A DNA stretch of 64,000 nucleotides from an uncultured Candidatus Saccharibacteria bacterium (GTDB taxonomy: Bacteria > Patescibacteriota > Minisyncoccia > Phycocordibacterales > UBA9973). Under the pieces are notes generated by a model that worked only from the letters and a program-made list of their open reading frames with translations, ran no database searches and was not told the DNA's origin. The stretch covers positions 17,423-81,422 of the forward strand of contig CAYNHU010000002.1 of assembly GCA_964397435.1 (NCBI GenBank), written 5' to 3'. Below are positions 44,266 to 63,774 of the stretch, piece by piece. Position 1 is the first letter of the stretch. Every line of letters begins with the position of its first letter. Position numbers and translations under genes: made by a program.

Positions 44266-45291
44266 TTAATGACGCAAGGTATTAGCAGTGAGGCGGTTCA
44301 AGATCTCTTCGAGCGTCTGTTCTTTGTCTGCGATGATGAGTGTATCCTTGAATTCTCCTATAAATGTATAGAATAATACGACGTTTCCCTTTGCATCAAT
44401 AAGGGCGCGAGTATCTTGATTTTTGATTGTTCGGTCTTTGAATTGTGCTTGGAAAAGGCCTTTGTTTTCTTCAGTAATAGTAATGTTGAAGACCGAATAG
44501 AGTTCATTAAAGATATGCTGTTCCCACTCGAGCATTCCAGCGAGAGCTGTTGTGTATGCGTTTGTTTTAAATGCAATGAAAAGTCCGTTGCCATTAAATG
44601 AGTACACACCGATGGTGAAAATATCATCAAATGAACGAATCAGTTGTGATGGTGCGACTGAGCCCAATGCAGTGAAAAATTCTTGTGATGTTACAACATG
44701 CTGTGATGTTGCGCCAACTTGTTGTGTAAATGGCAGGATGCGCTGAATTGTATTTATGGTTGTTGCTGTGCCCAAATACTGTCTGCTCAATTGTTCTCGC
44801 ACACTATCGCGTCCAAGATCTGTGATGTTGAGACCGACAACTGAATCAGTTTTGATCACAGTTGGTGTACCGGTCGGACTCTGTGTTACGGGTACTGTTT
44901 TTGGAATTTGCTGATAGAGCACAAAACCAATCACGCCAATTGCGATGATCACTAATGCGATTCCTCCAAGTACATAAAATTTGTTTGTTCCTGAATTAGG
45001 ATCTACATTTGCGCGCTGGCGTTCTTTGCGTTCATTTTCTGCCATTGCGATTTTCACGAGAGAACCTTCGCCTGATTTAATTGTTTCAGCGAGGTCGCTT
45101 TGAAATGTTCTGATAGTGTGAAGGTTTGCGTTTTGGCCAGAGAGACCAAGTGGTGCGCGCGAAGCGCGCACCACTTCCACGTCCACTGCATTCTCTCCTT
45201 CACGTTTTGACATACCTTCGAAGCCTTGCATATATCCACTATGATACTTGAGAAACGAACCAAACACCAGTGACCTCTTTGTTACAAACAA
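44266..45291 (-). CDS. hypothetical membrane-anchored protein (341 aa)
   Basis: Single TM helix (VLGGIALVIIAIGVIGFVLY) and no recognisable domain. Confidence 0.5.
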   Translation of the reverse strand: MFVTKRSLVFGSFLKYHSGYMQGFEGMSKREGENAVDVEVVRASRAPLGLSGQNANLHTIRTFQSDLAETIKSGEGSLVKIAMAENERKERQRANVDPNSGTNKFYVLGGIALVIIAIGVIGFVLYQQIPKTVPVTQSPTGTPTVIKTDSVVGLNITDLGRDSVREQLSRQYLGTATTINTIQRILPFTQQVGATSQHVVTSQEFFTALGSVAPSQLIRSFDDIFTIGVYSFNGNGLFIAFKTNAYTTALAGMLEWEQHIFNELYSVFNITITEENKGLFQAQFKDRTIKNQDTRALIDAKGNVVLFYTFIGEFKDTLIIADKEQTLEEILNRLTANTLRH

Positions 45292-46149: not shown

Positions 46150-46186
46150 AAACCAGCCCGCGCGCATGCGCGCGGGCTGGTTTGTA
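46150..46186. terminator. bidirectional terminator CCAGCCCGCGCGCATGCGCGCGGGCTGG flanked by A/T runs (downstream of pnp)
   Basis: Perfect 12 bp GC stem. Confidence 0.65.
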
Positions 46187-46190
46187 ACTT

Positions 46191-48371
46191 TTATATCTTA
46201 GGTGCTTCTGTCTGTGGAGCTTGGGCTGCTGGTGGAGTAGGTGGTTTGATGAAGTTTCGATCTGCTTCTTTAATTGAAAACGAGATACGTCCTTTTTCTT
46301 TATCAACCCCGACTACTTTTACCGGAACAGTCATTCCCTCTTTGAGTACATCAGCAACACGCATAACACGGAATGGAGCGATTTCAGAAATGTGGACGAG
46401 CCCATCAGCAAATTCTGAAACTTTGACGATTGCTCCGACTTCAAGGATTTTAACCACGGTTGCTTCAGCGGTATCGCCGACTTTCCATTCTCTTGTCATT
46501 TCTTTAATGATTGCCATTGCCGCATCGGCAGCGCCGTTTTTGCCAGTGACATATACTGTGCCGTCATCTTCGATTGTGATTTCAGCTCCAGTCTTGTCTC
46601 GGATTGCTTTGATTGTTTTACCACCAGAGCCGATGACGAGACCAATCTGATCAACTGCAACTTGAGTAACTAAAATCTTTGGAGCATTTGGAGAAATGTC
46701 AGCACGTGGCTGTGCAATTTCTTTTTCGATAACATCGAGGATTTGCAAACGTGCTTCTTTTGCTTGCACCATTGCTTCCTTGAGTGCTTTCACTGGAACG
46801 CCATCAACCTTGATATCAAGCTGAATTGCAGTCACACCATTTCGACTACCAGCAACTTTGAAGTCCATGTCTCCGTAGTGATCTTCTGGTCCTTGGATAT
46901 CAGTCAAAATTTTGTATTCAGTCGGGTTTACAGTATTCAAGATGAGACCCATGGCAATACCAGCAACTGGTCGCTTGATTGGCACACCACCATCCATAAG
47001 TGCAATTGATGATGCGCAGATTGATGCTTGTGATGTTGATCCGTTTGATGCAGTTGATTCTGATACAACACGAATTGTGTATGGGAACGACATCTTGTCT
47101 GGAATGATTGGCGTGAGTGCTTTTTCTGCGAGCATTCCGTGACCCATTTCACGACGATTCATACCGCCGACGCGACCTGTTTCACCTGCGGAATATGGAG
47201 GGAAATTGTAGTGGTGCATGAAACGTTTTGTTCCGCGAATCTCCATGCCTTCGATAGTGAGCGCTGTTTCTGGGCCACCGAGTGTGAGTATTGAGAGCAC
47301 GTGTGTCTGTCCTCGGTAGAAAATACCTGTACCGTGAAGCATTGGTGAGATACCACCTGCTTTTGCGAACAGTGGACGAACTTGATTCATTGCACGACCA
47401 TCCGCACGACGATTTTCTTTGAGTGCTTTTTCATGCACAAGATCATCGAGTGCAGTTTCGAGATAGTCTTTTGCAAGTGTTGCGACTTCTTCATTGTCAG
47501 CAAACTTTTCTGAAACGATAGTTGCCCACGCATGTTCGAGTTCACCGAATTTCTGTTTACCCAATGTTGGGTCGTCACCTTCTTTCAAAAAGATTTCATC
47601 AACTTTTGTTCCAACTGTCTGTTTGAAAAGTTCAATCACTTCAGCTGGTGTTTCTGGTTTCGCAAACACAAGTTTTGTTTTACCCATGTCCGCGATGATA
47701 CTTTTCTGCCAGTTTTCAATTTCAGCAATGTGCTTCATTGCAAAATCAATATGACCACCTATTGCTTCTTCGGTGTCTTCAAAAGCCATCGCTTCAATCA
47801 TCACTACGTTGCCATCTTTCCCACACACAGTGAGATCGAGTTCATAGTTTGATTCACCAGTGTTTGCAATAAACGGATCGTAGACAACTTCAGTTGAACC
47901 TTTTGCGCGGCCGACATGGACTGCACCAACGGGGCCGTTCCATGGAATATCTGAAACACCAAGCGCGAGTGATGCTGCGTTGATACCAAGTACACCCGGA
48001 TCACTTTGACCAACTGAAAGCACAGTGACAATAACCTGCACTGCGTTTTTAATGTGGTGTGAAAACAACGGACGAATTGTTCGATCAATAATACGTGATG
48101 AAAGCACTGCTTCATCAGATGGACGACCTTCACGTTTGTTGTACTGTCCGCCCAGGATAAGTCCTGAAGCGTAATACTTTTCCATGTATTCAACAGTTAA
48201 GTTGAAAAACCCTGGATTGTTTTTTCCGTCTTTTGAAATAACAGCTGTTGCCATAACAACAGTGTCTTCGCACTTCAAAATAACGGAACCATTAGCCTGA
48301 TCTGCCAAGTCAGAAAACAAAGCAGTCATTACTTTGCCACCGACAGTCAAGGTATATTCCTTACTATGCAT
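46191..48371 (-). CDS. pnp: polyribonucleotide nucleotidyltransferase (PNPase)
   Basis: 726 aa with two RNase PH domains and C-terminal KH and S1 domains. Confidence 0.95.
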   Translation of the reverse strand: MHSKEYTLTVGGKVMTALFSDLADQANGSVILKCEDTVVMATAVISKDGKNNPGFFNLTVEYMEKYYASGLILGGQYNKREGRPSDEAVLSSRIIDRTIRPLFSHHIKNAVQVIVTVLSVGQSDPGVLGINAASLALGVSDIPWNGPVGAVHVGRAKGSTEVVYDPFIANTGESNYELDLTVCGKDGNVVMIEAMAFEDTEEAIGGHIDFAMKHIAEIENWQKSIIADMGKTKLVFAKPETPAEVIELFKQTVGTKVDEIFLKEGDDPTLGKQKFGELEHAWATIVSEKFADNEEVATLAKDYLETALDDLVHEKALKENRRADGRAMNQVRPLFAKAGGISPMLHGTGIFYRGQTHVLSILTLGGPETALTIEGMEIRGTKRFMHHYNFPPYSAGETGRVGGMNRREMGHGMLAEKALTPIIPDKMSFPYTIRVVSESTASNGSTSQASICASSIALMDGGVPIKRPVAGIAMGLILNTVNPTEYKILTDIQGPEDHYGDMDFKVAGSRNGVTAIQLDIKVDGVPVKALKEAMVQAKEARLQILDVIEKEIAQPRADISPNAPKILVTQVAVDQIGLVIGSGGKTIKAIRDKTGAEITIEDDGTVYVTGKNGAADAAMAIIKEMTREWKVGDTAEATVVKILEVGAIVKVSEFADGLVHISEIAPFRVMRVADVLKEGMTVPVKVVGVDKEKGRISFSIKEADRNFIKPPTPPAAQAPQTEAPKI

Positions 48372-48388
48372 ATATATGTCTCTATGAG

Positions 48389-48441
48389 TCCCCAGACTTT
48401 AGTATTGAAACAAGCCGTTTCACTACTACCTGTCTGGGGGC
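48389..48441 (-). ncRNA. pnp 5' leader stem-loop (CCCCAGAC ... GTCTGGGG, about 9 bp stem with about 34 nt loop)
   Basis: Inverted repeat lies 18-70 nt upstream of the pnp start codon. It is analogous to the RNase III-processed autoregulatory leader hairpin known for pnp. Confidence 0.4.
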
Positions 48442-48485
48442 TAAGTTACCTAATAACAGCCTGACTATATCATATAAATGCATGT

Positions 48486-48514
48486 TTGACATTAGCTGTT
48501 TTGAGGGTTACTAT
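48486..48514 (+). promoter_or_regulatory. promoter TTGACA-N17-TACTAT for the 233 aa gene
   Basis: Consensus -35 box and good -10 box lie 20 bp upstream of the ATG at 48535. Confidence 0.45.
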
Positions 48515-48534
48515 CGAGTTAAATTGATTAACAT

Positions 48535-49236
48535 ATGAATAAATTAAACAGCCACTCCTTCAATTACGAAGGTATTTCCCTGACCGACATACTTACTTTT
48601 TCGACTAAGTACACTGAAGGTATTTCAGATGTTTGGGCAAAAATTGTACAGCTTGCAAAGGGTCAAACCAAAGCAGGTGTAGAACTTACCTTTTTACGTG
48701 CCGATGGCACACAAAAAACTGAACGCGCCACTATTACCAATATACGAAACAATGAAAAACGTTTTGATTTTGGAAACTATGTAGATGATGGTAATAATGG
48801 CAAAGTTTTTACCGGCCGCACTATTCGCCTCGATAATGTACTTGGCGAAATACCAGTTTTGCTTGGTTTCTCCTACTCTTCTATTTTCTGCTTTGGCAAA
48901 AAAATAGAGGCATACCGTACCTTTATGGAAAAAGTTTGGTTTGGTGGTTATGACAATAACTATGTACGTTTAACGTATATCAACACCGATGGTTCGTTTT
49001 CATCAATTGATTGTTTGACCAAAAAAGTAAACAAATCAAATTTTGAGACAGTTGACTATCGCGAGTTGCGTATTATCAACGCCAAAACAGCCGGAGTTAC
49101 CATGAAAGGTGTAAACGGCAGGCCCGATGTGCACCGCTTTGTATCCGCTAACGGTTACCTTTGTAAAATTGAACTAATTGCGAAGCCTTCGTATTCTCAC
49201 GAAGATGATGGTTTCGAATTTGGGCAAACAGGCTAA
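48535..49236 (+). CDS. hypothetical protein (233 aa), higher GC, part of the cassette inserted between rpsO and pnp
   Basis: ORF with its own promoter. No signal peptide and no known motif. Confidence 0.5.
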   Translation: MNKLNSHSFNYEGISLTDILTFSTKYTEGISDVWAKIVQLAKGQTKAGVELTFLRADGTQKTERATITNIRNNEKRFDFGNYVDDGNNGKVFTGRTIRLDNVLGEIPVLLGFSYSSIFCFGKKIEAYRTFMEKVWFGGYDNNYVRLTYINTDGSFSSIDCLTKKVNKSNFETVDYRELRIINAKTAGVTMKGVNGRPDVHRFVSANGYLCKIELIAKPSYSHEDDGFEFGQTG

Positions 49237-49359
49237 CGTACAACAATGTAGTTTTTTATCGCTTCCGATTCCTCACAAAGGGTCGGAAGTTTTTTATTTG
49301 ACAATACTGAGTTTTGTAGTTAGTATGATGGTCATTCTTTCCTCTATAAAAACTGAATC

Positions 49360-49818
49360 ATGATTATAACCTTCAAAGACAAAACACTTTTTGGCGAAGC
49401 AGATATAACAAATGGCGCTAGTGTTGATTTTTTTATCCGCATACAGTCATTTAAAGCCGCTGCGTACTTTGTACAGGGACATCCTCACATTGCCCGTTTA
49501 GCTATTGCGGAATCAGCTCAAGATTCCTACATACAGGCCTTGGGTGCGGCACAGCTCGTTATCGTTAACGAAGGCACTACCGAGTTAGTATTTATACCCT
49601 TCGGTAATGGGTTTGATGCACCGGCTAAAAGTATTGAAACATGTAAGCATGAATTGCTGACAACCCTCGATAGATACTTCACTGCAACACCATCAACAAA
49701 AGTAATTCATATTCGTCTCGATTATTTATTTTTAATAACTGATACCACTTCTCGCAAGGGATTATGGATGCTTAACTATCTTGCCGAACAACCACACACT
49801 ATTGTTGTGTATATTTAG
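49360..49818 (+). CDS. hypothetical protein (152 aa), higher GC, cassette gene 2
   Basis: ORF followed by a strong terminator. Confidence 0.5.
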   Translation: MIITFKDKTLFGEADITNGASVDFFIRIQSFKAAAYFVQGHPHIARLAIAESAQDSYIQALGAAQLVIVNEGTTELVFIPFGNGFDAPAKSIETCKHELLTTLDRYFTATPSTKVIHIRLDYLFLITDTTSRKGLWMLNYLAEQPHTIVVYI

Positions 49819-49829
49819 TTCTAAATAAC

Positions 49830-49866
49830 AAAACGGGAATCGCGTAGCGATTCCCGTTTCTTTTTT
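49830..49866. terminator. bidirectional terminator AAACGGGAATCGC-GTA-GCGATTCCCGTTT + TTTTTT
   Basis: Perfect stem between convergent genes. Confidence 0.65.
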
Positions 49867-50368
49867 ATCTCCCCAAAACGTATTTACGTGGGTTCTCTGA
49901 CATGTCGATGAAATCGTCGGCGACTTCGCGGAGTTTCATACTTGTTGATTTGCCGAATGAGATAATTTCAACTTGTGTCATTGTCTGAAGATATTGTACG
50001 AGTGGTACAAAGTCTCCATCCCCTGATGCGATGATAATTGCATCGAGACGCGGAGCCATTTTAATTGCATCAACTGCAAGTCCGACATCCCAATCTCCTT
50101 TTTTTGCACCGCCGGCAAATACTTGTAAATCTTTTGTTTTTGTTTCGATACCCATTTTAGTGAGTGCTTCAAAAAATCCTTTCTCATCTCCTGCTTCTGA
50201 CGTAATGACATACGCGATTGCGCGTACGAGTTTGCGACCAGCAACAGCATCTTTGAGTACGTTTGCAAAATTGACGCGTGCTTTATACAGATTGCGTCCA
50301 CTGTGGTAGAGATTTTGTGTGTCGATAAAAAGTGCGACACGCTGTTCTTTATGTTTAATAGCTGACAT
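49865..50368 (-). CDS. NYN-domain (LabA-like, PIN-related) protein
   Basis: Motifs VALFIDTQNLYHS and AIIIASGDGDFVPLV are typical of NYN/LabA nucleases. Start chosen at MSAIKH; the ORF could extend to 50395. Confidence 0.7.
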   Translation of the reverse strand: MSAIKHKEQRVALFIDTQNLYHSGRNLYKARVNFANVLKDAVAGRKLVRAIAYVITSEAGDEKGFFEALTKMGIETKTKDLQVFAGGAKKGDWDVGLAVDAIKMAPRLDAIIIASGDGDFVPLVQYLQTMTQVEIISFGKSTSMKLREVADDFIDMSENPRKYVLGR

Positions 50369-50557
50369 ATAAATAATACTAATTGTTCGTTTCAAAAAAG
50401 TGAAACGGTTTATAAAAATGGAACATAGTTCCTAGTAGCGATTCGCAAGATGTTTTTCCGTGCTTATTCCAATTGTGCTTACACTTTGTGGCTGCACAGT
50501 CCTGGTCGCTGAAGCTTAGTGTACCACGCCGGCCGCGGCGAGCGCTTATCAGCGCTC

Positions 50558-50586
50558 GAACATAAAATCCGCCTTGCGGCGGATTG
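50558..50586 (-). terminator. rpsO terminator AATCCGCC-GCAA-GGCGGATT + TTTATGTT (minus strand)
   Basis: Hairpin plus U-rich tract directly after the rpsO stop. A second perfect hairpin CGAGCGC-TGATAA-GCGCTCG lies at 50539-50558. Confidence 0.5.
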
Positions 50587-50591
50587 TTACG

Positions 50592-50858
50592 TTATTCAGC
50601 AAGTTTGATTTTCTTGACGAGAGCTTCGTGACGAGCTTTGTCATTGCGCTCGAGGTACTTGAGGTGAGTGCGTCGGTCTGCAACCATCTTGATCAAGCCA
50701 CGGCGTGAGTGATTATCTTTCTTGTGTTTCTTCAAGTGAGTTGCGAGTTCATCAATACGTGTTGAGAGTATTGCTACCTGCACTTCTGGAGAACCAGTAT
50801 CAGTTGTGTGAAGCTGGCTTTTCTTGATAACAGTCTGCTTTTTCTTTGTTTTGAGCAT
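50592..50858 (-). CDS. rpsO: 30S ribosomal protein S15
   Basis: 88 aa with the conserved [15 protein letters not shown] and MVADRR S15 motifs. Confidence 0.95.
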
Positions 50859-61610: not shown

Positions 61611-61684
61611 TGGTGCGGGTAGGGAGAATCGAACTCCCGTCTCATCCTTGGCAAGGACGTGTTCTACCACTAAACCATACCCGC
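61611..61684 (-). tRNA. tRNA-Gly (anticodon GCC), CCA encoded
   Basis: Manual cloverleaf fold: acceptor GCGGGTA/TACCCGC, anticodon loop TTGCCAA, T-loop TTCGATT. Confidence 0.85.
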
Positions 61685-61824
61685 GTTTATAAATGGTAAC
61701 GTGGACCATTATATATAAAGTTTTATTATTTTGCAATTGTGTGTATAATAACTGACGTTACTCGTTAGTAAAAACAAGTTAAATACGCTAGTAAGATATC
61801 CAGAAGTTCTTAGACGAGGTATCT

Positions 61825-61899
61825 GCACCCATGGTGAAATGGATATCACAACGGTCTTCGGAACCGTTATTGGGGGTTCGAATCCCTCTGGGTGCACCA
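61825..61899 (+). tRNA. tRNA-Arg (anticodon TCG), CCA encoded
   Basis: Manual fold: acceptor GCACCCA/TGGGTGC, D-stem GTGA/TCAC, anticodon stem ACGGT/ACCGT with loop CTTCGGA, T-loop TTCGAAT. Confidence 0.75.
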
Positions 61900-61903
61900 A
61901 GCA

Positions 61904-61945
61904 ATCCCCCAGCGCCGGCTATGCCGGCGCTGGGGGATTTTCTTA
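61904..61945 (+). terminator. terminator ATCCCCCAGCGCCGGC-TAT-GCCGGCGCTGGGGGAT + TTTCTT after tRNA-Arg
   Basis: 16 bp perfect stem. Confidence 0.6.
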
Positions 61946-62234
61946 TACCCATCCTACATAGATGACCTATAGCAACTACGGAGCCATTAGAAAGGCCCTG
62001 GACTCACACATTTGACAAACACTCTCCTATTGCATAATTCTGTCAATCCCACTACTATGTCCTTTTCCCCATTTTTTAACCTTATTTTTCAATAGTATGT
62101 GGATAAGTCTGTGTACTATGTTTATAAAAGACATCATTTCGTATTGTCTAATTATTGCGTCTTTTATGAAAAAAGCTTGATAAATAAGGATATTTTGATT
62201 TTTAGGACTACTAATCCCCAACCCAGAATCTAAA

Positions 62235-62502
62235 TGTTTCACGTGAAACACTTAAATAGTAACTGTTTCATATGAAACAGGTTAAGACATTAAAAATCTT
62301 AAATATAAAACACGAAGTGTTACACATGAAACAAAAAGCACCAAAAACAGTGAAACAAATAAATTTAGATCCTTTTTATTTATATTTTATAGCTTATATC
62401 TATAATAACTGTTACACATGAAACACTGTATTTAAATCATGTCTCAGTACACAGATTGAAATACTTTTTGTTTATTAACCATAAAACGTTTCATGTGTAA
62501 CA
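62235..62502. repeat. array of six related palindromic/inverted 15-18 bp motifs (TGTTTCACGTGAAACA, CTGTTTCATATGAAACAG, TGTTACACATGAAACA x2, GTGAAACA half-site, TGTTTCATGTGTAACA) upstream of yraN
   Basis: Copies at 62235-62250, 62263-62280, 62318-62333, 62347-62358, 62410-62425 and 62488-62502. The last ends 4 bp before the yraN ATG. Related CACGTG-cored palindromes also occur inside yraN (GTTTCACGTGAAAG at about 62683 and TGTCACGTGACA at about 62753). Confidence 0.55.
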
Positions 62503-62505
62503 CTT

Positions 62506-62910
62506 ATGCCGAGAGTTTTCACATCAAAAAGCCAAAAAATAGGACAAATAGGAGAAAAACTTGCCGCTCTATATCTTACAAAACAAGGTTTTAGTATTAA
62601 AGATATTAACTATACAAAACCATGGGGTGAGATAGATATTGTTGCTTTAAAAGACAATATAATTCATTTTATAGAAGTAAAATCAGTTTCACGTGAAAGT
62701 AAATCTGGTTTAGCTATTAAAAATAAGGATTTATATAGGCCAGAAGAAAATCTGTCACGTGACAAGTTGCGTAAACTCTATAGGACAATAGGGTTATATC
62801 TAAAAGACAAAAATATGACCGATAGGGTAGAGTGGCAACTGGACCTCATTTGCGTATACCTTGAGCCGTCTAAAAAGATGGGTAAAGTTAAGTATCTTGA
62901 AAATATCTGA
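62506..62910 (+). CDS. yraN: YraN/UPF0102-family predicted endonuclease
   Basis: Motifs GEIDIVAL...IHFIEVK fit the UPF0102 (PD-(D/E)xK-like) signature. Length is 134 aa. Confidence 0.75.
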   Translation: MPRVFTSKSQKIGQIGEKLAALYLTKQGFSIKDINYTKPWGEIDIVALKDNIIHFIEVKSVSRESKSGLAIKNKDLYRPEENLSRDKLRKLYRTIGLYLKDKNMTDRVEWQLDLICVYLEPSKKMGKVKYLENI

Positions 62911-63185
62911 AATAAGTAAAGACAGGTCGGCGTGTGTGGGTTTGTTTGTATTTTGGATTGCCTGTGTTTTTATGTAGATTTTTGTATCTTTATTGATATA
63001 CATAATTGATATACATATACAGCAGAGCAGGGTGGGGTGGTTTTTAAAAGTCCTCAAATAAAGCCCCCTAAAAAAAGAGTACTCTAAATAACACTCTAAT
63101 ATCACATAACTACCACATAAATCTGTTGCAAATATTGTATAAAATAAAAAATATGCTACTATAGGCTGGTCGCATGACATTTTTT

Positions 63186-63256
63186 CGGGGTGTAGTATAT
63201 CGGTAGTATACATGTTTTGGGAACATGAGGGCCGGGTTCGATTCCCGGCACCCCGA
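63186..63256 (+). tRNA. probable tRNA-Pro (anticodon TGG), CCA not encoded
   Basis: Acceptor CGGGGTG/CACCCCG, T-arm CCGGG-TTCGATT-CCCGG, anticodon stem CATGT/ACATG with loop TTTGGGA. The D-arm/position-26 geometry is atypical in the manual fold. Confidence 0.55.
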
Positions 63257-63268
63257 CACTAAAAATAT

Positions 63269-63628
63269 ATGGATATTGAAAAAGTAAAAAACATGGCACC
63301 TGCACCAGTTGGTGCTGTAAAGGATCAGTTTGTTGGTTTCATAAACTTTATTCGTGAGCAAGGCGTTGTTGGACTTGCAGTCGGTTTCATTTTGGGTGGG
63401 GCAGTATCAAAGACTGTTTCTTCACTTGTTGAAAACGTTATCAACCCACTTGTTGGTATTTTGCTCGGCAAAGTAAACCTTACTGATCGAGCTCTCGTTG
63501 TTGGCTCAGCGACACTCAAATACGGCGCTTTTATTTCAACACTAATTGATTTTGTTATTATCGCAGCGGTTGTGTACTTTGGAGTTCGCGCACTTGGCCT
63601 CGATAAGTTGGACAAGAAAAAGCAGTAA
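63269..63628 (+). CDS. mscL: large-conductance mechanosensitive channel MscL
   Basis: 119 aa with TM1 motif VVGLAVGFILGGAVSKTVSSLVENVINPLVG, a second TM helix and a K-rich C-terminus. Confidence 0.9.
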   Translation: MDIEKVKNMAPAPVGAVKDQFVGFINFIREQGVVGLAVGFILGGAVSKTVSSLVENVINPLVGILLGKVNLTDRALVVGSATLKYGAFISTLIDFVIIAAVVYFGVRALGLDKLDKKKQ

Positions 63629-63703
63629 ACTGTAAAAACAGTAACTTGTGAAGTTTCTAGTAAGTTGTTTTTCTACTGGTTTCTGGTAAGATGACCAGTA
63701 CAT

Positions 63704-63774
63704 GCGGGATTAGTTAAATGGTATAACTCTAGTTTTCCAAACTAGTGTCGGGGGTTCGATTCCCCCATCCCGCA
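63704..63774 (+). tRNA. tRNA-Gly (anticodon TCC), CCA not encoded
   Basis: Canonical cloverleaf: GCGGGAT/ATCCCGC acceptor, D-loop AATGGTA, anticodon stem CTAGT/ACTAG with loop TTTCCAA, T-arm GGGGG-TTCGATT-CCCCC. Confidence 0.8.

What the first reader, a model, noticed from the sequence alone, without database searches (positions are those of the whole stretch)
48372..50591. 2.2 kb insertion between rpsO and pnp with a higher-GC two-gene cassette and an NYN nuclease gene
The genes rpsO and pnp are normally adjacent and co-transcribed. Here they are separated by three features:
- two plus-strand genes (233 and 152 aa) with noticeably higher GC and different codon choice, carrying their own TTGACA-N17-TACTAT promoter and a strong terminator;
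- a convergent NYN/LabA-like predicted RNase gene;
- stacked GC hairpins after rpsO.

The compositional contrast and standalone promoter and terminator suggest a horizontally acquired cassette. The two unknown proteins could be a toxin/immunity pair or an effector pair. An NYN nuclease sitting beside PNPase hints at RNA-metabolism coupling.
Basis: partly seen in the sequence, partly recalled or inferred. Interest (0 to 1): 0.55.

Follow-up and report, generated by a model that had tools for sequence, protein, structure and literature searches.

The report
Old orphan genes splitting rpsO–NYN–pnp cluster
Two small lineage-specific genes of unknown function sit on the opposite strand inside a Patescibacteria RNA-decay gene cluster (rpsO–NYN nuclease–pnp); they are long-standing residents with normal composition, not a recent foreign cassette, and one of them is predicted to have an Sm/Hfq-like fold.

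Summary
The layout is real: pnp(-) | 233-aa gene A(+) | 152-aa gene B(+) | NYN(-) | rpsO(-), with the stated promoter, the terminators and the hairpins after rpsO. The claimed higher GC and odd codon use are not there. A and B are 39.0% and 39.9% GC against 41.1% for the window, and their codon use is unremarkable.

The NYN gene is not part of an insertion. In 45 patescibacterial species loci the order is rpsO→NYN→pnp on one strand, so only A and B (about 1.5 kb) are extra.

A and B occupy the same place in relatives whose flanking proteins are 87-99% identical, while A is 56-65% and B 45-49% identical. More distant relatives (A 28-35%) keep A alone, still divergent from pnp.

The NYN|pnp junction is a recurrent landing site: 13 of 45 loci carry unrelated cargo there, always upstream of a conserved pnp promoter and a covarying leader hairpin.

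The parts
46191..48371 (-). pnp, polynucleotide phosphorylase (726 aa)
   Evidence: Pfam RNase_PH x2, KH_1 and S1. 42-93% identical to PNPases in 80 related loci.
48390..48439 (-). Conserved pnp 5' leader hairpin (CCCCAGAC...GUCUGGGG with a 3x2 internal loop)
   Evidence: Folds with z=-3.3. The same hairpin is upstream of pnp in 17 Paceibacteria loci: 19 pairs, 13 with compensatory changes, 91% paired against 30-43% in slid controls, 0 of 500 shuffles as good. No Rfam match.
48464..48492 (-). pnp promoter-like site with an extended -10 (TGATATAGT), back to back with the gene A promoter
   Evidence: Found by the consensus scan. A TGnTAnnnT element about 20-25 nt upstream of the leader hairpin recurs in loci both with and without junction cargo. 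Function is inferred.
48486..48514 (+). Gene A promoter, TTGACA-N17-TACTAT
   Evidence: The same hexamers and spacing are kept in L001, L002 and L003.
48535..49236 (+). Gene A, 233 aa: an orphan family with two helix-plus-β-barrel modules (Sm-like fold) and a conserved acidic C-terminal tail (DDGEVFG)
   Evidence: - Homologues: 7 close clusters and 28 clusters among 1.84 billion representatives.
- No Pfam, PHROG, NCBIfam or PADLOC hit.
- AlphaFold2 with 26 sequences: pLDDT 90.2, pTM 0.81.
- dN/dS 0.09-0.18.
49261..49290 (+). Intrinsic terminator after gene A
   Evidence: 11-pair hairpin followed by a T run. An equivalent hairpin plus T run sits at the same place in L001 and L002.
49298..49326 (+). 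Gene B promoter, TTGACA-N17-TAGTAT
   Evidence: Conserved in L002 (TTGACA-N17-TAGTAT) and L001 (TTGACA-N17-TATTAT).
49360..49818 (+). Gene B, 152 aa: an orphan protein, dispensable in relatives
   Evidence: Only 4 clusters among 5.8 billion, at 45-50% identity, with 51 invariant positions. No family, solved-structure or phage match. Absent from L003-5, L089 and L092, where A abuts NYN. dN/dS 0.12-0.20.
49831..49859 (.). Bidirectional terminator shared by gene B (+) and NYN (-)
   Evidence: 13-14-pair hairpin with T runs on both strands. Hairpins of different sequence occupy the same place in L001 and L002.
49865..50368 (-). LabA-type NYN (PIN-like) nuclease gene, 167 aa: an ancestral middle gene of rpsO-NYN-pnp in Patescibacteria
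   Evidence: - PF01936 E=8e-34.
- E=7e-25 to PDB 2qip VPA0982, with the FIDxxN, GDWDVG..D and SGDGDF acidic motifs identical.
- Lies between rpsO and pnp on the same strand in 43 of the 45 patescibacterial loci that hold both NYN and pnp (rpsO not found in L021 and L030), and is absent from the Bacillota and Chloroflexota loci.
50369..50591 (-). Structured rpsO-NYN spacer: the rpsO terminator hairpin (50566-50585), further GC hairpins, and a probable NYN promoter and leader
   Evidence: z=-4.66; terminator-like site. The first hairpin is kept with compensatory changes in L001, L002, L089 and L092. The remainder is conserved only with L002.
50592..50858 (-). rpsO, ribosomal protein S15 (88 aa)
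   Evidence: PF00312 E=1.5e-29.

Best explanation
This is the Patescibacteria (Paceibacteria, Nomurabacteria-like) form of the rpsO-pnp RNA-decay cluster.

Shown:
- In this phylum a LabA-type NYN nuclease gene is a regular middle member, in the order rpsO→NYN→pnp.
- In the window's lineage each gene has acquired its own terminator and promoter.
- pnp carries a conserved extended -10 promoter and a covarying leader hairpin.
- The stretch between the NYN terminator and the pnp promoter is a permissive junction. Different lineages have repeatedly accepted unrelated genes there.
- In the window's clade the junction holds two opposite-strand orphan genes, A and B. Each has its own sigma-70-type promoter and intrinsic terminator.
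- A and B are old, vertically inherited residents. Their composition is host-like and they are under purifying selection, but they evolve four to five times faster at the protein level than their neighbours.
- A is the constant element. B is an optional partner.

Inferred:
- A is a cytoplasmic protein built of two helix-plus-β-barrel modules of Sm-like topology, with a conserved acidic tail.
- It most likely binds RNA or oligonucleotides, or docks onto an RNA-handling partner.
- It may serve PNPase and/or the NYN nuclease, as Hfq does for PNPase in E. coli.
- It is expressed from a promoter back to back with the pnp promoter.
- B's role is unknown. My guess is an accessory or modulator of A.
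For: **Anatomy.**

**NYN is ancestral.**
- rpsO→NYN→pnp lie on one strand in 43 of 45 patescibacterial loci that hold NYN and pnp.
- The rpsO-NYN gap ranges from 5 to 506 bp.
- The NYN-pnp gap is under 300 bp in 32 of 45 loci.
- No NYN is found at pnp in the Bacillota and Chloroflexota loci.

**The junction is a hotspot.**
- 13 of 45 loci have 0.7-2.4 kb of unrelated cargo at NYN|pnp, against 0 of 43 at rpsO|NYN (Fisher p=9e-5).
- The cargo includes HEPN + nucleotidyltransferase + IS200-like transposase, Bro-N + polysaccharide lyase 14, FabH-like, α/β hydrolase and TrmB/MarR genes.
- The pnp promoter and leader hairpin are retained in loci both with and without cargo.

**Inheritance is vertical.**
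- L001, L002 and L006 have the same order and orientation.
- A alone sits at the same place in L003-5, L088, L089, L090 and L091/92.
- Percent identity to the window's proteins:

| Locus | pnp | NYN | S15 | A | B |
|---|---|---|---|---|---|
| L002 | 93 | 99 | 99 | 65 | 49 |
| L001 | 87 | 92 | 87 | 59 | 46 |
| L089 | 63 | 74 | 78 | 29 | absent |

- dN/dS is 0.09-0.20 for A and B.
- Synonymous divergence of A and B equals that of the neighbouring TerC gene.
- Composition and codon use are typical of the window.

**Fold of A.**
- AlphaFold2 gives pLDDT 90.2.
- Motif IRLDNV follows β4 of module 1, at the topological place of the Sm2 motif IRGDNI of 1loj_A.
Against: - The Sm likeness rests on one predicted model and one method. 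Foldseek against the PDB found nothing below E=0.08.
- No sequence profile links A to LSm or Hfq. Pfam gave no hit. hhalign gave E=0.067 against archaeal Sm proteins and E=0.8 against Hfq.
- Small SH3-like barrels recur by convergence and bind many kinds of ligand.
- Most A proteins are acidic to neutral, pI 5.2-6.6.
- Because the junction accepts arbitrary cargo in other lineages, lying next to pnp says little about function.
- A second A subfamily sits elsewhere, between rplS and a pseudouridine synthase.
- A is missing from equally related genomes such as L008 and L017, where pnp is 62-63% identical. It is therefore dispensable.
- Promoters and terminators are consensus matches, not mapped transcript ends.
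Confidence: 0.55

Rival explanations
1. A and B are incidental cargo with no link to RNA metabolism. They landed in a permissive intergenic junction and stayed. The β-barrels of A bind a protein, a small molecule or DNA, as WYL, Tudor or SH3-like modules do. The position next to pnp carries no functional meaning.
For: - The same junction holds functionally unrelated genes in 13 of 45 lineages.
- A is absent from many relatives.
- Another A subfamily lies at a different locus.
- Most A proteins are acidic to neutral.
- There is no sequence-level link to Sm or Hfq.
- Weak WYL_2 hits appear in 2 of 26 members, and PafBC/BrxR WYL domains appear among the fold matches.
Against: - Both known chromosomal positions of the A family are flanked by RNA or ribosome genes: pnp/NYN, and rplS/pseudouridine synthase. 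This is weak evidence, because such genes are a large share of these small genomes.
- The divergent arrangement with pnp, with back-to-back promoters, is kept while A falls to about 29% identity.
Confidence: 0.35
2. One reading: a recently acquired foreign two-gene cassette encoding a toxin/immunity or effector pair.
For: - The genes have their own promoters and terminators and lie on the opposite strand inside an operon.
- They are absent from all 45 patescibacterial species-representative loci.
- They evolve fast.
- The junction does hold a genuine HEPN/nucleotidyltransferase pair with an IS200-like gene in one other lineage, L054.
Against: - GC, GC3 and codon use are host-typical.
- The same genes sit in the same place in relatives with diverged sequences.
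- A and B are separate transcription units, and A often occurs without B.
- There are no toxin-antitoxin, defence or PHROG domains.
- There are no phage, plasmid or IMG/VR relatives.
- There are no flanking repeats.
- The neighbouring tyrosine recombinase gene is a conserved XerC/D-like gene found at the same place in genomes that lack A and B.
Confidence: 0.05
3. A and B are decaying remnants of a former mobile element or prophage, or are spurious ORFs.
For: They are orphans without annotation. There is a weak, sub-threshold 'pre-tape measure' Pfam hit in 5 of 26 A members, best E=0.065.
Against: - The reading frames are intact, of conserved length, and have many invariant residues across lineages.
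- dN/dS is well below 1.
- The AlphaFold model of A is confident.
- No viral structure or sequence match was found: BFVD TM-score was at most 0.24.
Confidence: 0.03

Closest known systems
E. coli rpsO-pnp operon, with its RNase III-processed pnp leader hairpin and the antisense sRNA SraG in the spacer (PMC5029454)
   Same: rpsO lies upstream of pnp and is co-directional with it. There is a terminator after rpsO. A stable hairpin sits in the pnp 5' leader, here conserved with covariation. There is opposite-strand transcription between the two genes.
   Different: - A NYN nuclease gene is interposed, phylum-wide.
- The opposite-strand transcripts here encode proteins (A and B) rather than an sRNA. 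They diverge from pnp rather than overlapping its leader.
- pnp appears to rely on its own promoter.
- RNase III cleavage and autoregulation were not tested.
Sm/LSm/Hfq superfamily (archaeal SmAP1 1loj, yeast SmF 1n9r, Hfq). Hfq cooperates with PNPase in E. coli (PMC8294330).
   Different: - No significant sequence similarity.
- Two barrels in one 233-aa chain instead of one domain of about 70 aa.
- The second module has six strands.
- A conserved acidic C-terminal tail is present.
- Ring assembly and RNA binding are unknown.
LabA-like NYN proteins, group NYN.COG1432 of the PIN-like superfamily (PDB 2qip VPA0982; PMC5499597)
   Same: The window's NYN protein matches PF01936 and 2qip, with all acidic active-site motifs intact.
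   Different: The group's function is listed as unknown. Described neighbourhoods involve tRNA/rRNA maturation genes. PNPase and S15 are not mentioned in that survey. The rpsO-NYN-pnp linkage seen here across Patescibacteria appears not to have been described in the literature I could search.
Variable 'islets' at permissive intergenic junctions between conserved core genes
   Same: A fixed junction between conserved genes carries different, often orphan or mobile cargo in different lineages.
   Different: The junction here lies inside a conserved RNA-decay gene cluster. The A/B cargo is stably inherited rather than strain-variable.

Membership tests
Sm/LSm/Hfq superfamily (gene A) | Sm fold: an N-terminal α-helix followed by five strongly bent antiparallel β-strands | tested here: met
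Sm/LSm/Hfq superfamily (gene A) | Sm1/Sm2 sequence motifs detectable by family profiles (Pfam LSM, Hfq) | tested here: not met
   No LSM or Hfq hit in any of 26 family members at E≤1. hhalign of module 1 against archaeal Sm proteins gave E=0.067, and of the whole family against Hfq E=0.8. Only IRLDNV resembles IRGDNI.
Sm/LSm/Hfq superfamily (gene A) | Assembly into hexameric or heptameric rings, and binding of single-stranded RNA | not testable with these tools
   No multimer prediction or experiment was available.
Type II toxin-antitoxin or toxin/immunity pair (A+B) | Two adjacent genes co-transcribed as one unit, overlapping or closely spaced | tested here: not met
   The spacer is 123 bp. 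It contains a terminator hairpin plus T run and then a new TTGACA-N17-TAGTAT promoter, all conserved in L001 and L002.
Type II toxin-antitoxin or toxin/immunity pair (A+B) | Strict co-occurrence of the two partners | tested here: not met
   A occurs without B in L003-5, L089 and L092. Elsewhere A has other or no partners.
Type II toxin-antitoxin or toxin/immunity pair (A+B) | A recognisable toxin, antitoxin or defence domain | tested here: not met
   Pfam, PHROGs, NCBIfam and PADLOC gave no hit for A or B.
Recently acquired genomic island | Atypical base composition or codon usage | tested here: not met
Recently acquired genomic island | Absence from close relatives at the same site | tested here: not met
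   A and B are present at the same site in L001, L002 and L006. A is present in L003-5, L088-L092. They are absent only from more distant species representatives.
Recently acquired genomic island | Mobility genes, flanking direct repeats, or relatives on mobile elements | tested here: not met
   Only short chance repeats were found. There are no matches in phages, plasmids or IMG/VR. The nearby recombinase gene is a conserved XerC/D-like gene.
LabA-like NYN nuclease, PF01936 / COG1432 (NYN gene) | Domain match above the curated threshold, with conserved acidic active-site residues | tested here: met
   117.7 bits against a cut-off of 24.2. The D, GDWDVG..D and SGDGDF motifs are identical to 2qip.
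LabA-like NYN nuclease, PF01936 / COG1432 (NYN gene) | Ribonuclease activity | not testable with these tools
   The group's function is listed as unknown in PMC5499597.
rpsO-pnp operon of the E. coli type | rpsO directly upstream of pnp, with one spacer carrying the rpsO terminator and the pnp leader | tested here: not met
   NYN, and here also A and B, lie between the two genes. Direct adjacency is seen in the Bacillota and Chloroflexota loci and in 2 patescibacterial loci, L045 and L047.
rpsO-pnp operon of the E. coli type | A stable hairpin in the pnp leader that is the target of RNase III/PNPase autoregulation | tested here: inconclusive
   A conserved, covarying hairpin is present. Cleavage and autoregulation cannot be tested here.

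The most novel reading that the evidence does not exclude
Gene A founds a previously undescribed bacterial family of tandem Sm-like proteins. These would act as an Hfq-like RNA chaperone or adaptor for PNPase and the NYN nuclease in Patescibacteria. The phylum-wide rpsO-NYN-pnp cluster, with its conserved pnp leader hairpin, would then define a minimal RNA-decay module specific to the candidate phyla radiation (CPR), in which the LabA-type NYN protein is the missing endonuclease.
Probability: 0.15. Interest if true: 0.7.

Novelty: new variant of a known kind. Interest (0 to 1): 0.4.

Why it matters
As a claim of recent horizontal transfer, the finding is ordinary and largely wrong. The checking turned up three points of modest value.

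1. LabA-type NYN proteins are abundant but have no assigned function. A phylum-wide, often tightly packed rpsO-NYN-pnp arrangement gives a concrete, testable link to RNA decay in Patescibacteria. The RNA-turnover machinery of these organisms is poorly known.
2. pnp in Paceibacteria carries a conserved, covarying leader hairpin that is not in Rfam. It is a candidate autoregulatory element.
3. Gene A defines an unannotated protein family with a confident two-barrel, Sm-like model lying next to pnp. If it binds RNA, it would be an Hfq-like factor in a group where none is described.

None of these is established beyond comparative and predicted-structure evidence.

Tried and rejected
**Family and sequence searches**
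- Pfam, PHROGs, NCBIfam and PADLOC on A and B gave nothing above noise.
- PDB sequence search with the A and B profiles gave nothing.
- tblastn of A and B against the phage and plasmid collections gave no match.
- IMG/VR scans with the A and B alignments found no relative.
- Two metagenome-contig scans, one for A and one for B, found no relative.
- A third homology search with the wide A alignment added only one new protein.

**Structure-based searches**
- Foldseek of the A model against the PDB and BFVD found no significant match.
- The AlphaFold database library (afdb50) was not available on the machine.
- The first AlphaFold run of A, with 7 sequences, was poor (pLDDT 60).

**Hypotheses tested and dropped**
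- B homologous to A: hhalign found nothing.
- A homologous to Hfq: nothing.
- Internal duplication within A: the two halves align in topological register but not significantly, E=0.17.
- Allele swapping of the cassette: suggested by NG86 dS of 2.1-2.4 for A and B against 0.8 for pnp and NYN. Rejected because four-fold-site divergence at identical residues equals that of the neighbouring TerC gene.
- A known RNA family in the rpsO-NYN spacer or the pnp leader: Rfam found nothing credible.
- Flanking att sites or target-site duplications: none found.
Full report
**1. What is in the sequence**

The interval 48372-50591 lies exactly between pnp (46191-48371, minus strand) and rpsO (50592-50858, minus strand). 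Pfam shows RNase_PH x2, KH and S1 for pnp and S15 for rpsO.

The interval contains three genes.
- Gene A: 48535-49236, plus strand, 233 aa.
- Gene B: 49360-49818, plus strand, 152 aa.
- A NYN gene on the minus strand. It matches PF01936 at E=8e-34. Gene calls in relatives put its start at 50368, giving 167 aa.

The consensus scan finds the following signals.
- A hairpin terminator after gene A, at 49261-49290.
- A second promoter, TTGACA-N17-TAGTAT, at 49298-49326.
- A 13-14-pair bidirectional terminator at 49831-49859, between gene B and NYN.
- The rpsO terminator hairpin, at 50566-50585.

The 223-nt rpsO-NYN spacer (folded as a 230-nt stretch, 50366-50595) is far more stable than shuffled sequence (z=-4.66).

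**2. What is not there**

The compositional contrast does not exist.
- Gene A is 39.0% GC and gene B 39.9%. The window is 41.1% and pnp 44.2%.
- GC3 is 0.355 for A and 0.333 for B, which is mid-range for the window's genes.
- By a length-corrected codon-usage deviation, A ranks 15th of 56 genes and B 48th. pnp is more deviant than either.

**3. The organism and the ancestral arrangement**

The closest PNPases among species-representative genomes are 57-63% identical. They come from Patescibacteria, labelled Nomurabacteria or Paceibacterota.

I located S15, NYN, A, B and pnp by tblastn in the 80 loci fetched around pnp.
- 45 patescibacterial loci hold both NYN and pnp. In 43 of them the order is rpsO→NYN→pnp on one strand.
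- In several loci the gaps are only 4-60 bp.
- No Bacillota or Chloroflexota locus has NYN at pnp. In those, rpsO and pnp are directly adjacent.

The NYN gene is therefore an ancestral operon member in this phylum, not part of an insertion. It belongs to the LabA-like COG1432 group.
- Its closest solved relative is 2qip, with all acidic motifs identical.
- The function of that group is listed as unknown (PMC5499597).
- I found no paper describing the rpsO-NYN-pnp linkage.

**4. The junction is a hotspot**

- The NYN→pnp gap is under 300 bp in 32 of 45 loci and 0.7-2.4 kb in the other 13.
- The rpsO→NYN gap never exceeds 506 bp (Fisher p=9e-5).

The long gaps hold unrelated genes:
- a HEPN/nucleotidyltransferase pair with an IS200-like transposase (L054);
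- Bro-N plus a polysaccharide lyase (L057);
- a FabH-like gene (L020);
- an α/β hydrolase (L014);
- a TrmB/MarR regulator (L021);
- a NAGPA-like gene (L009);
- several orphans.

The 170 nt upstream of pnp show two conserved elements in loci both with and without cargo.
- An extended -10 element, TGnTAnnnT.
- A hairpin about 20-25 nt further downstream.

The hairpin covaries across 17 loci.
- 19 pairs, 13 of them with compensatory changes.
- 91% of cells paired, against 30-43% for slid controls.
- 0 of 500 shuffles as good.
- I cut the hairpins out by eye, which favours alignment of the arms. The compensatory changes are independent of that.

Insertions thus lie between the NYN terminator and an autonomous pnp promoter and leader. 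This plausibly explains why they are tolerated.

**5. History of A and B**

A has 7 close clusters among 5.8 billion proteins. It has 28 clusters among 1.84 billion representatives, all 165-252 aa. B has only 4 clusters.

Contigs carrying close homologues show the same arrangement.
- L001 (a 155-kb JGI contig), L002 and L006 have the same order and orientation as the window.
- L003-5 lack B.

More distant A homologues, at 29-35% identity, are again divergent from pnp.
- L088: the truncated neighbour is the pnp N-terminus.
- L089 and L091/92: pnp | A | NYN | rpsO | xerC, without B.
- L090: the locus begins with the pnp leader sequence and runs A, a HAD-family gene, PfkB, NYN.

A second subfamily lies between rplS and a pseudouridine synthase. 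It is followed by a 152-aa gene, a 194-aa gene, or nothing.

None of the 80 species-representative loci has A or B within the up to 8 kb of flank fetched on each side of pnp.

Protein identities show how fast A and B evolve relative to their neighbours:

| Locus | pnp | NYN | S15 | A | B |
|---|---|---|---|---|---|
| L002 | 93 | 99 | 99 | 65 | 49 |
| L001 | 87 | 92 | 87 | 59 | 46 |
| L089 | 63 | 74 | 78 | 29 | absent |

- dN/dS is 0.09-0.18 for A and 0.12-0.20 for B. It is 0.05-0.08 for pnp and 0.02-0.03 for NYN. dS is near saturation.
- Four-fold-site divergence at identical residues in A and B (0.58-0.59) equals that of the nearby TerC gene (0.60). There is therefore no sign of cassette exchange.
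- Both promoters and all terminators are kept in L001 and L002, with different hairpin sequences. L003, which lacks B, keeps the A promoter and a terminator hairpin after A.
- There are no flanking repeats, and no phage, plasmid or IMG/VR relatives.
- The tyrosine recombinase gene next to rpsO is a conserved XerC/D-like gene. It is present at the same place in genomes without A and B.

**6. What A and B might do**

Neither protein matches Pfam, PHROGs, NCBIfam, PADLOC or PDB sequences.

An AlphaFold2 model of A from 26 sequences is confident, with pLDDT 90.2 and pTM 0.81. It shows two modules, each a helix followed by a β-barrel:
- module 1: helix H24-42, then strands β48-98;
- module 2: helix H124-135, then strands β142-214.

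The tail is disordered but conserved, with the motif DDGEVFG.

Fold searches gave mixed results.
- Foldseek finds nothing significant in the PDB or in viral models.

The most conserved sequence motifs lie in loops: IRLDNVLGEIP, YKNDDGS, KVNKSN and HRFIS.
- IRLDNV follows β4 of module 1, where Sm proteins carry the Sm2 motif. IRGDNI was verified in 1loj_A.
- hhalign aligns the two motifs, but without significance (E=0.067).

I therefore regard 'Sm-like fold' as met at the level of a predicted structure, and family membership as not established.

RNA or oligonucleotide binding, possibly in support of PNPase as Hfq does in E. coli (PMC8294330), is my preferred mechanism for A, at roughly 30%. The rival is that the cargo is functionally unrelated to its neighbours. 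That rival is nearly as likely, given what else lands in this junction and the mostly acidic pI of the A family.

A toxin-antitoxin or immunity pair is unlikely for three reasons.
- A and B are separate transcription units.
- A frequently occurs without B.
- Neither protein has a toxin, antitoxin or defence domain.

**7. Verdict**

The feature is an old, lineage-specific pair of orphan genes in a recurrent insertion junction of a Patescibacteria-specific rpsO-NYN-pnp cluster.

My confidence is about 0.85 in the evolutionary and anatomical account, and about 0.3 in the proposed role of A. The combined figure of 0.55 covers the explanation as a whole.

Interest is moderate to low for the finding as stated. 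The side results deserve follow-up: the NYN linkage, the pnp leader hairpin and the Sm-like orphan family.

Noticed in passing
window 48390-48439 (-), with the promoter-like element at 48464-48472; also upstream of pnp in L001-L003, L008-L013, L015-L017, L020, L021, L023-L025, L088, L089 and L091: A conserved pnp 5' leader hairpin with a 3x2 internal loop flanked by invariant G-C/A-U pairs. 13 of 19 pairs show compensatory changes across 17 Paceibacteria loci. It is preceded by an extended -10 element (TGnTAnnnT) and is not in Rfam. It is a candidate autoregulatory or RNase III-type element.
   Followed up: yes
window 49865-50858; loci L008-L059 and L076: rpsO→NYN→pnp is the standard arrangement in Patescibacteria: 43 of the 45 loci that hold NYN and pnp, often with gaps of 4-60 bp. 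NYN is absent from the Bacillota and Chloroflexota pnp loci. This gives the LabA-type NYN group, whose function is unknown, a link to RNA decay that I did not find described.
   Followed up: partly
NYN|pnp junction in L009, L014, L017, L020, L021, L024, L026, L044, L046, L048, L051, L054 and L057: The junction is a recurrent insertion site holding 0.7-2.4 kb of unrelated cargo. Examples are a HEPN + nucleotidyltransferase pair with an IS200-like transposase (L054: 6414-7760) and Bro-N + polysaccharide lyase 14 (L057: 5438-7213).
   Followed up: partly
window 50592-50858 against L002: 6341-6607: rpsO is almost identical at synonymous sites between the window and L002: 1 of 39 four-fold sites differ. 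The adjacent NYN and pnp differ at 42-43% of such sites. This suggests a recent local recombination or gene-conversion tract ending in the rpsO-NYN spacer.
   Followed up: no
contigs of P0039, P0026 (L094, L095) and P0030: A second subfamily of gene A lies between rplS (L19) and a pseudouridine synthase gene, again on the opposite strand. It is followed by a 152-aa gene (overlapping by 4 nt), a 194-aa gene, or nothing. No DNA was available for two of these contigs, so the partner genes could not be compared with B.
   Followed up: partly
L093: 2-661 (-) and window 44266-45291 (-): In L093 an A homologue is divergent from a homologue of the window's 341-aa membrane protein, not from pnp. This points to a local rearrangement or loss in that lineage.
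   Followed up: no
window 46150-46183: A perfect 15-pair GC-rich palindrome (AAACCAGCCCGCGCGCATGCGCGCGGGCTGGTTT) lies just downstream of pnp. It would work as a terminator on both strands.
   Followed up: no
L003: 10001-10792 (also L004 and L005): The 263-aa gene call for the A homologue P0005 probably starts too early. The conserved TTGACA-N17-TACTAT promoter lies inside the called N-terminal extension, and the sibling P0006 is 231 aa.
   Followed up: partly
window 61614-63774: Four tRNA genes cluster near the end of the window (Rfam).
   Followed up: no
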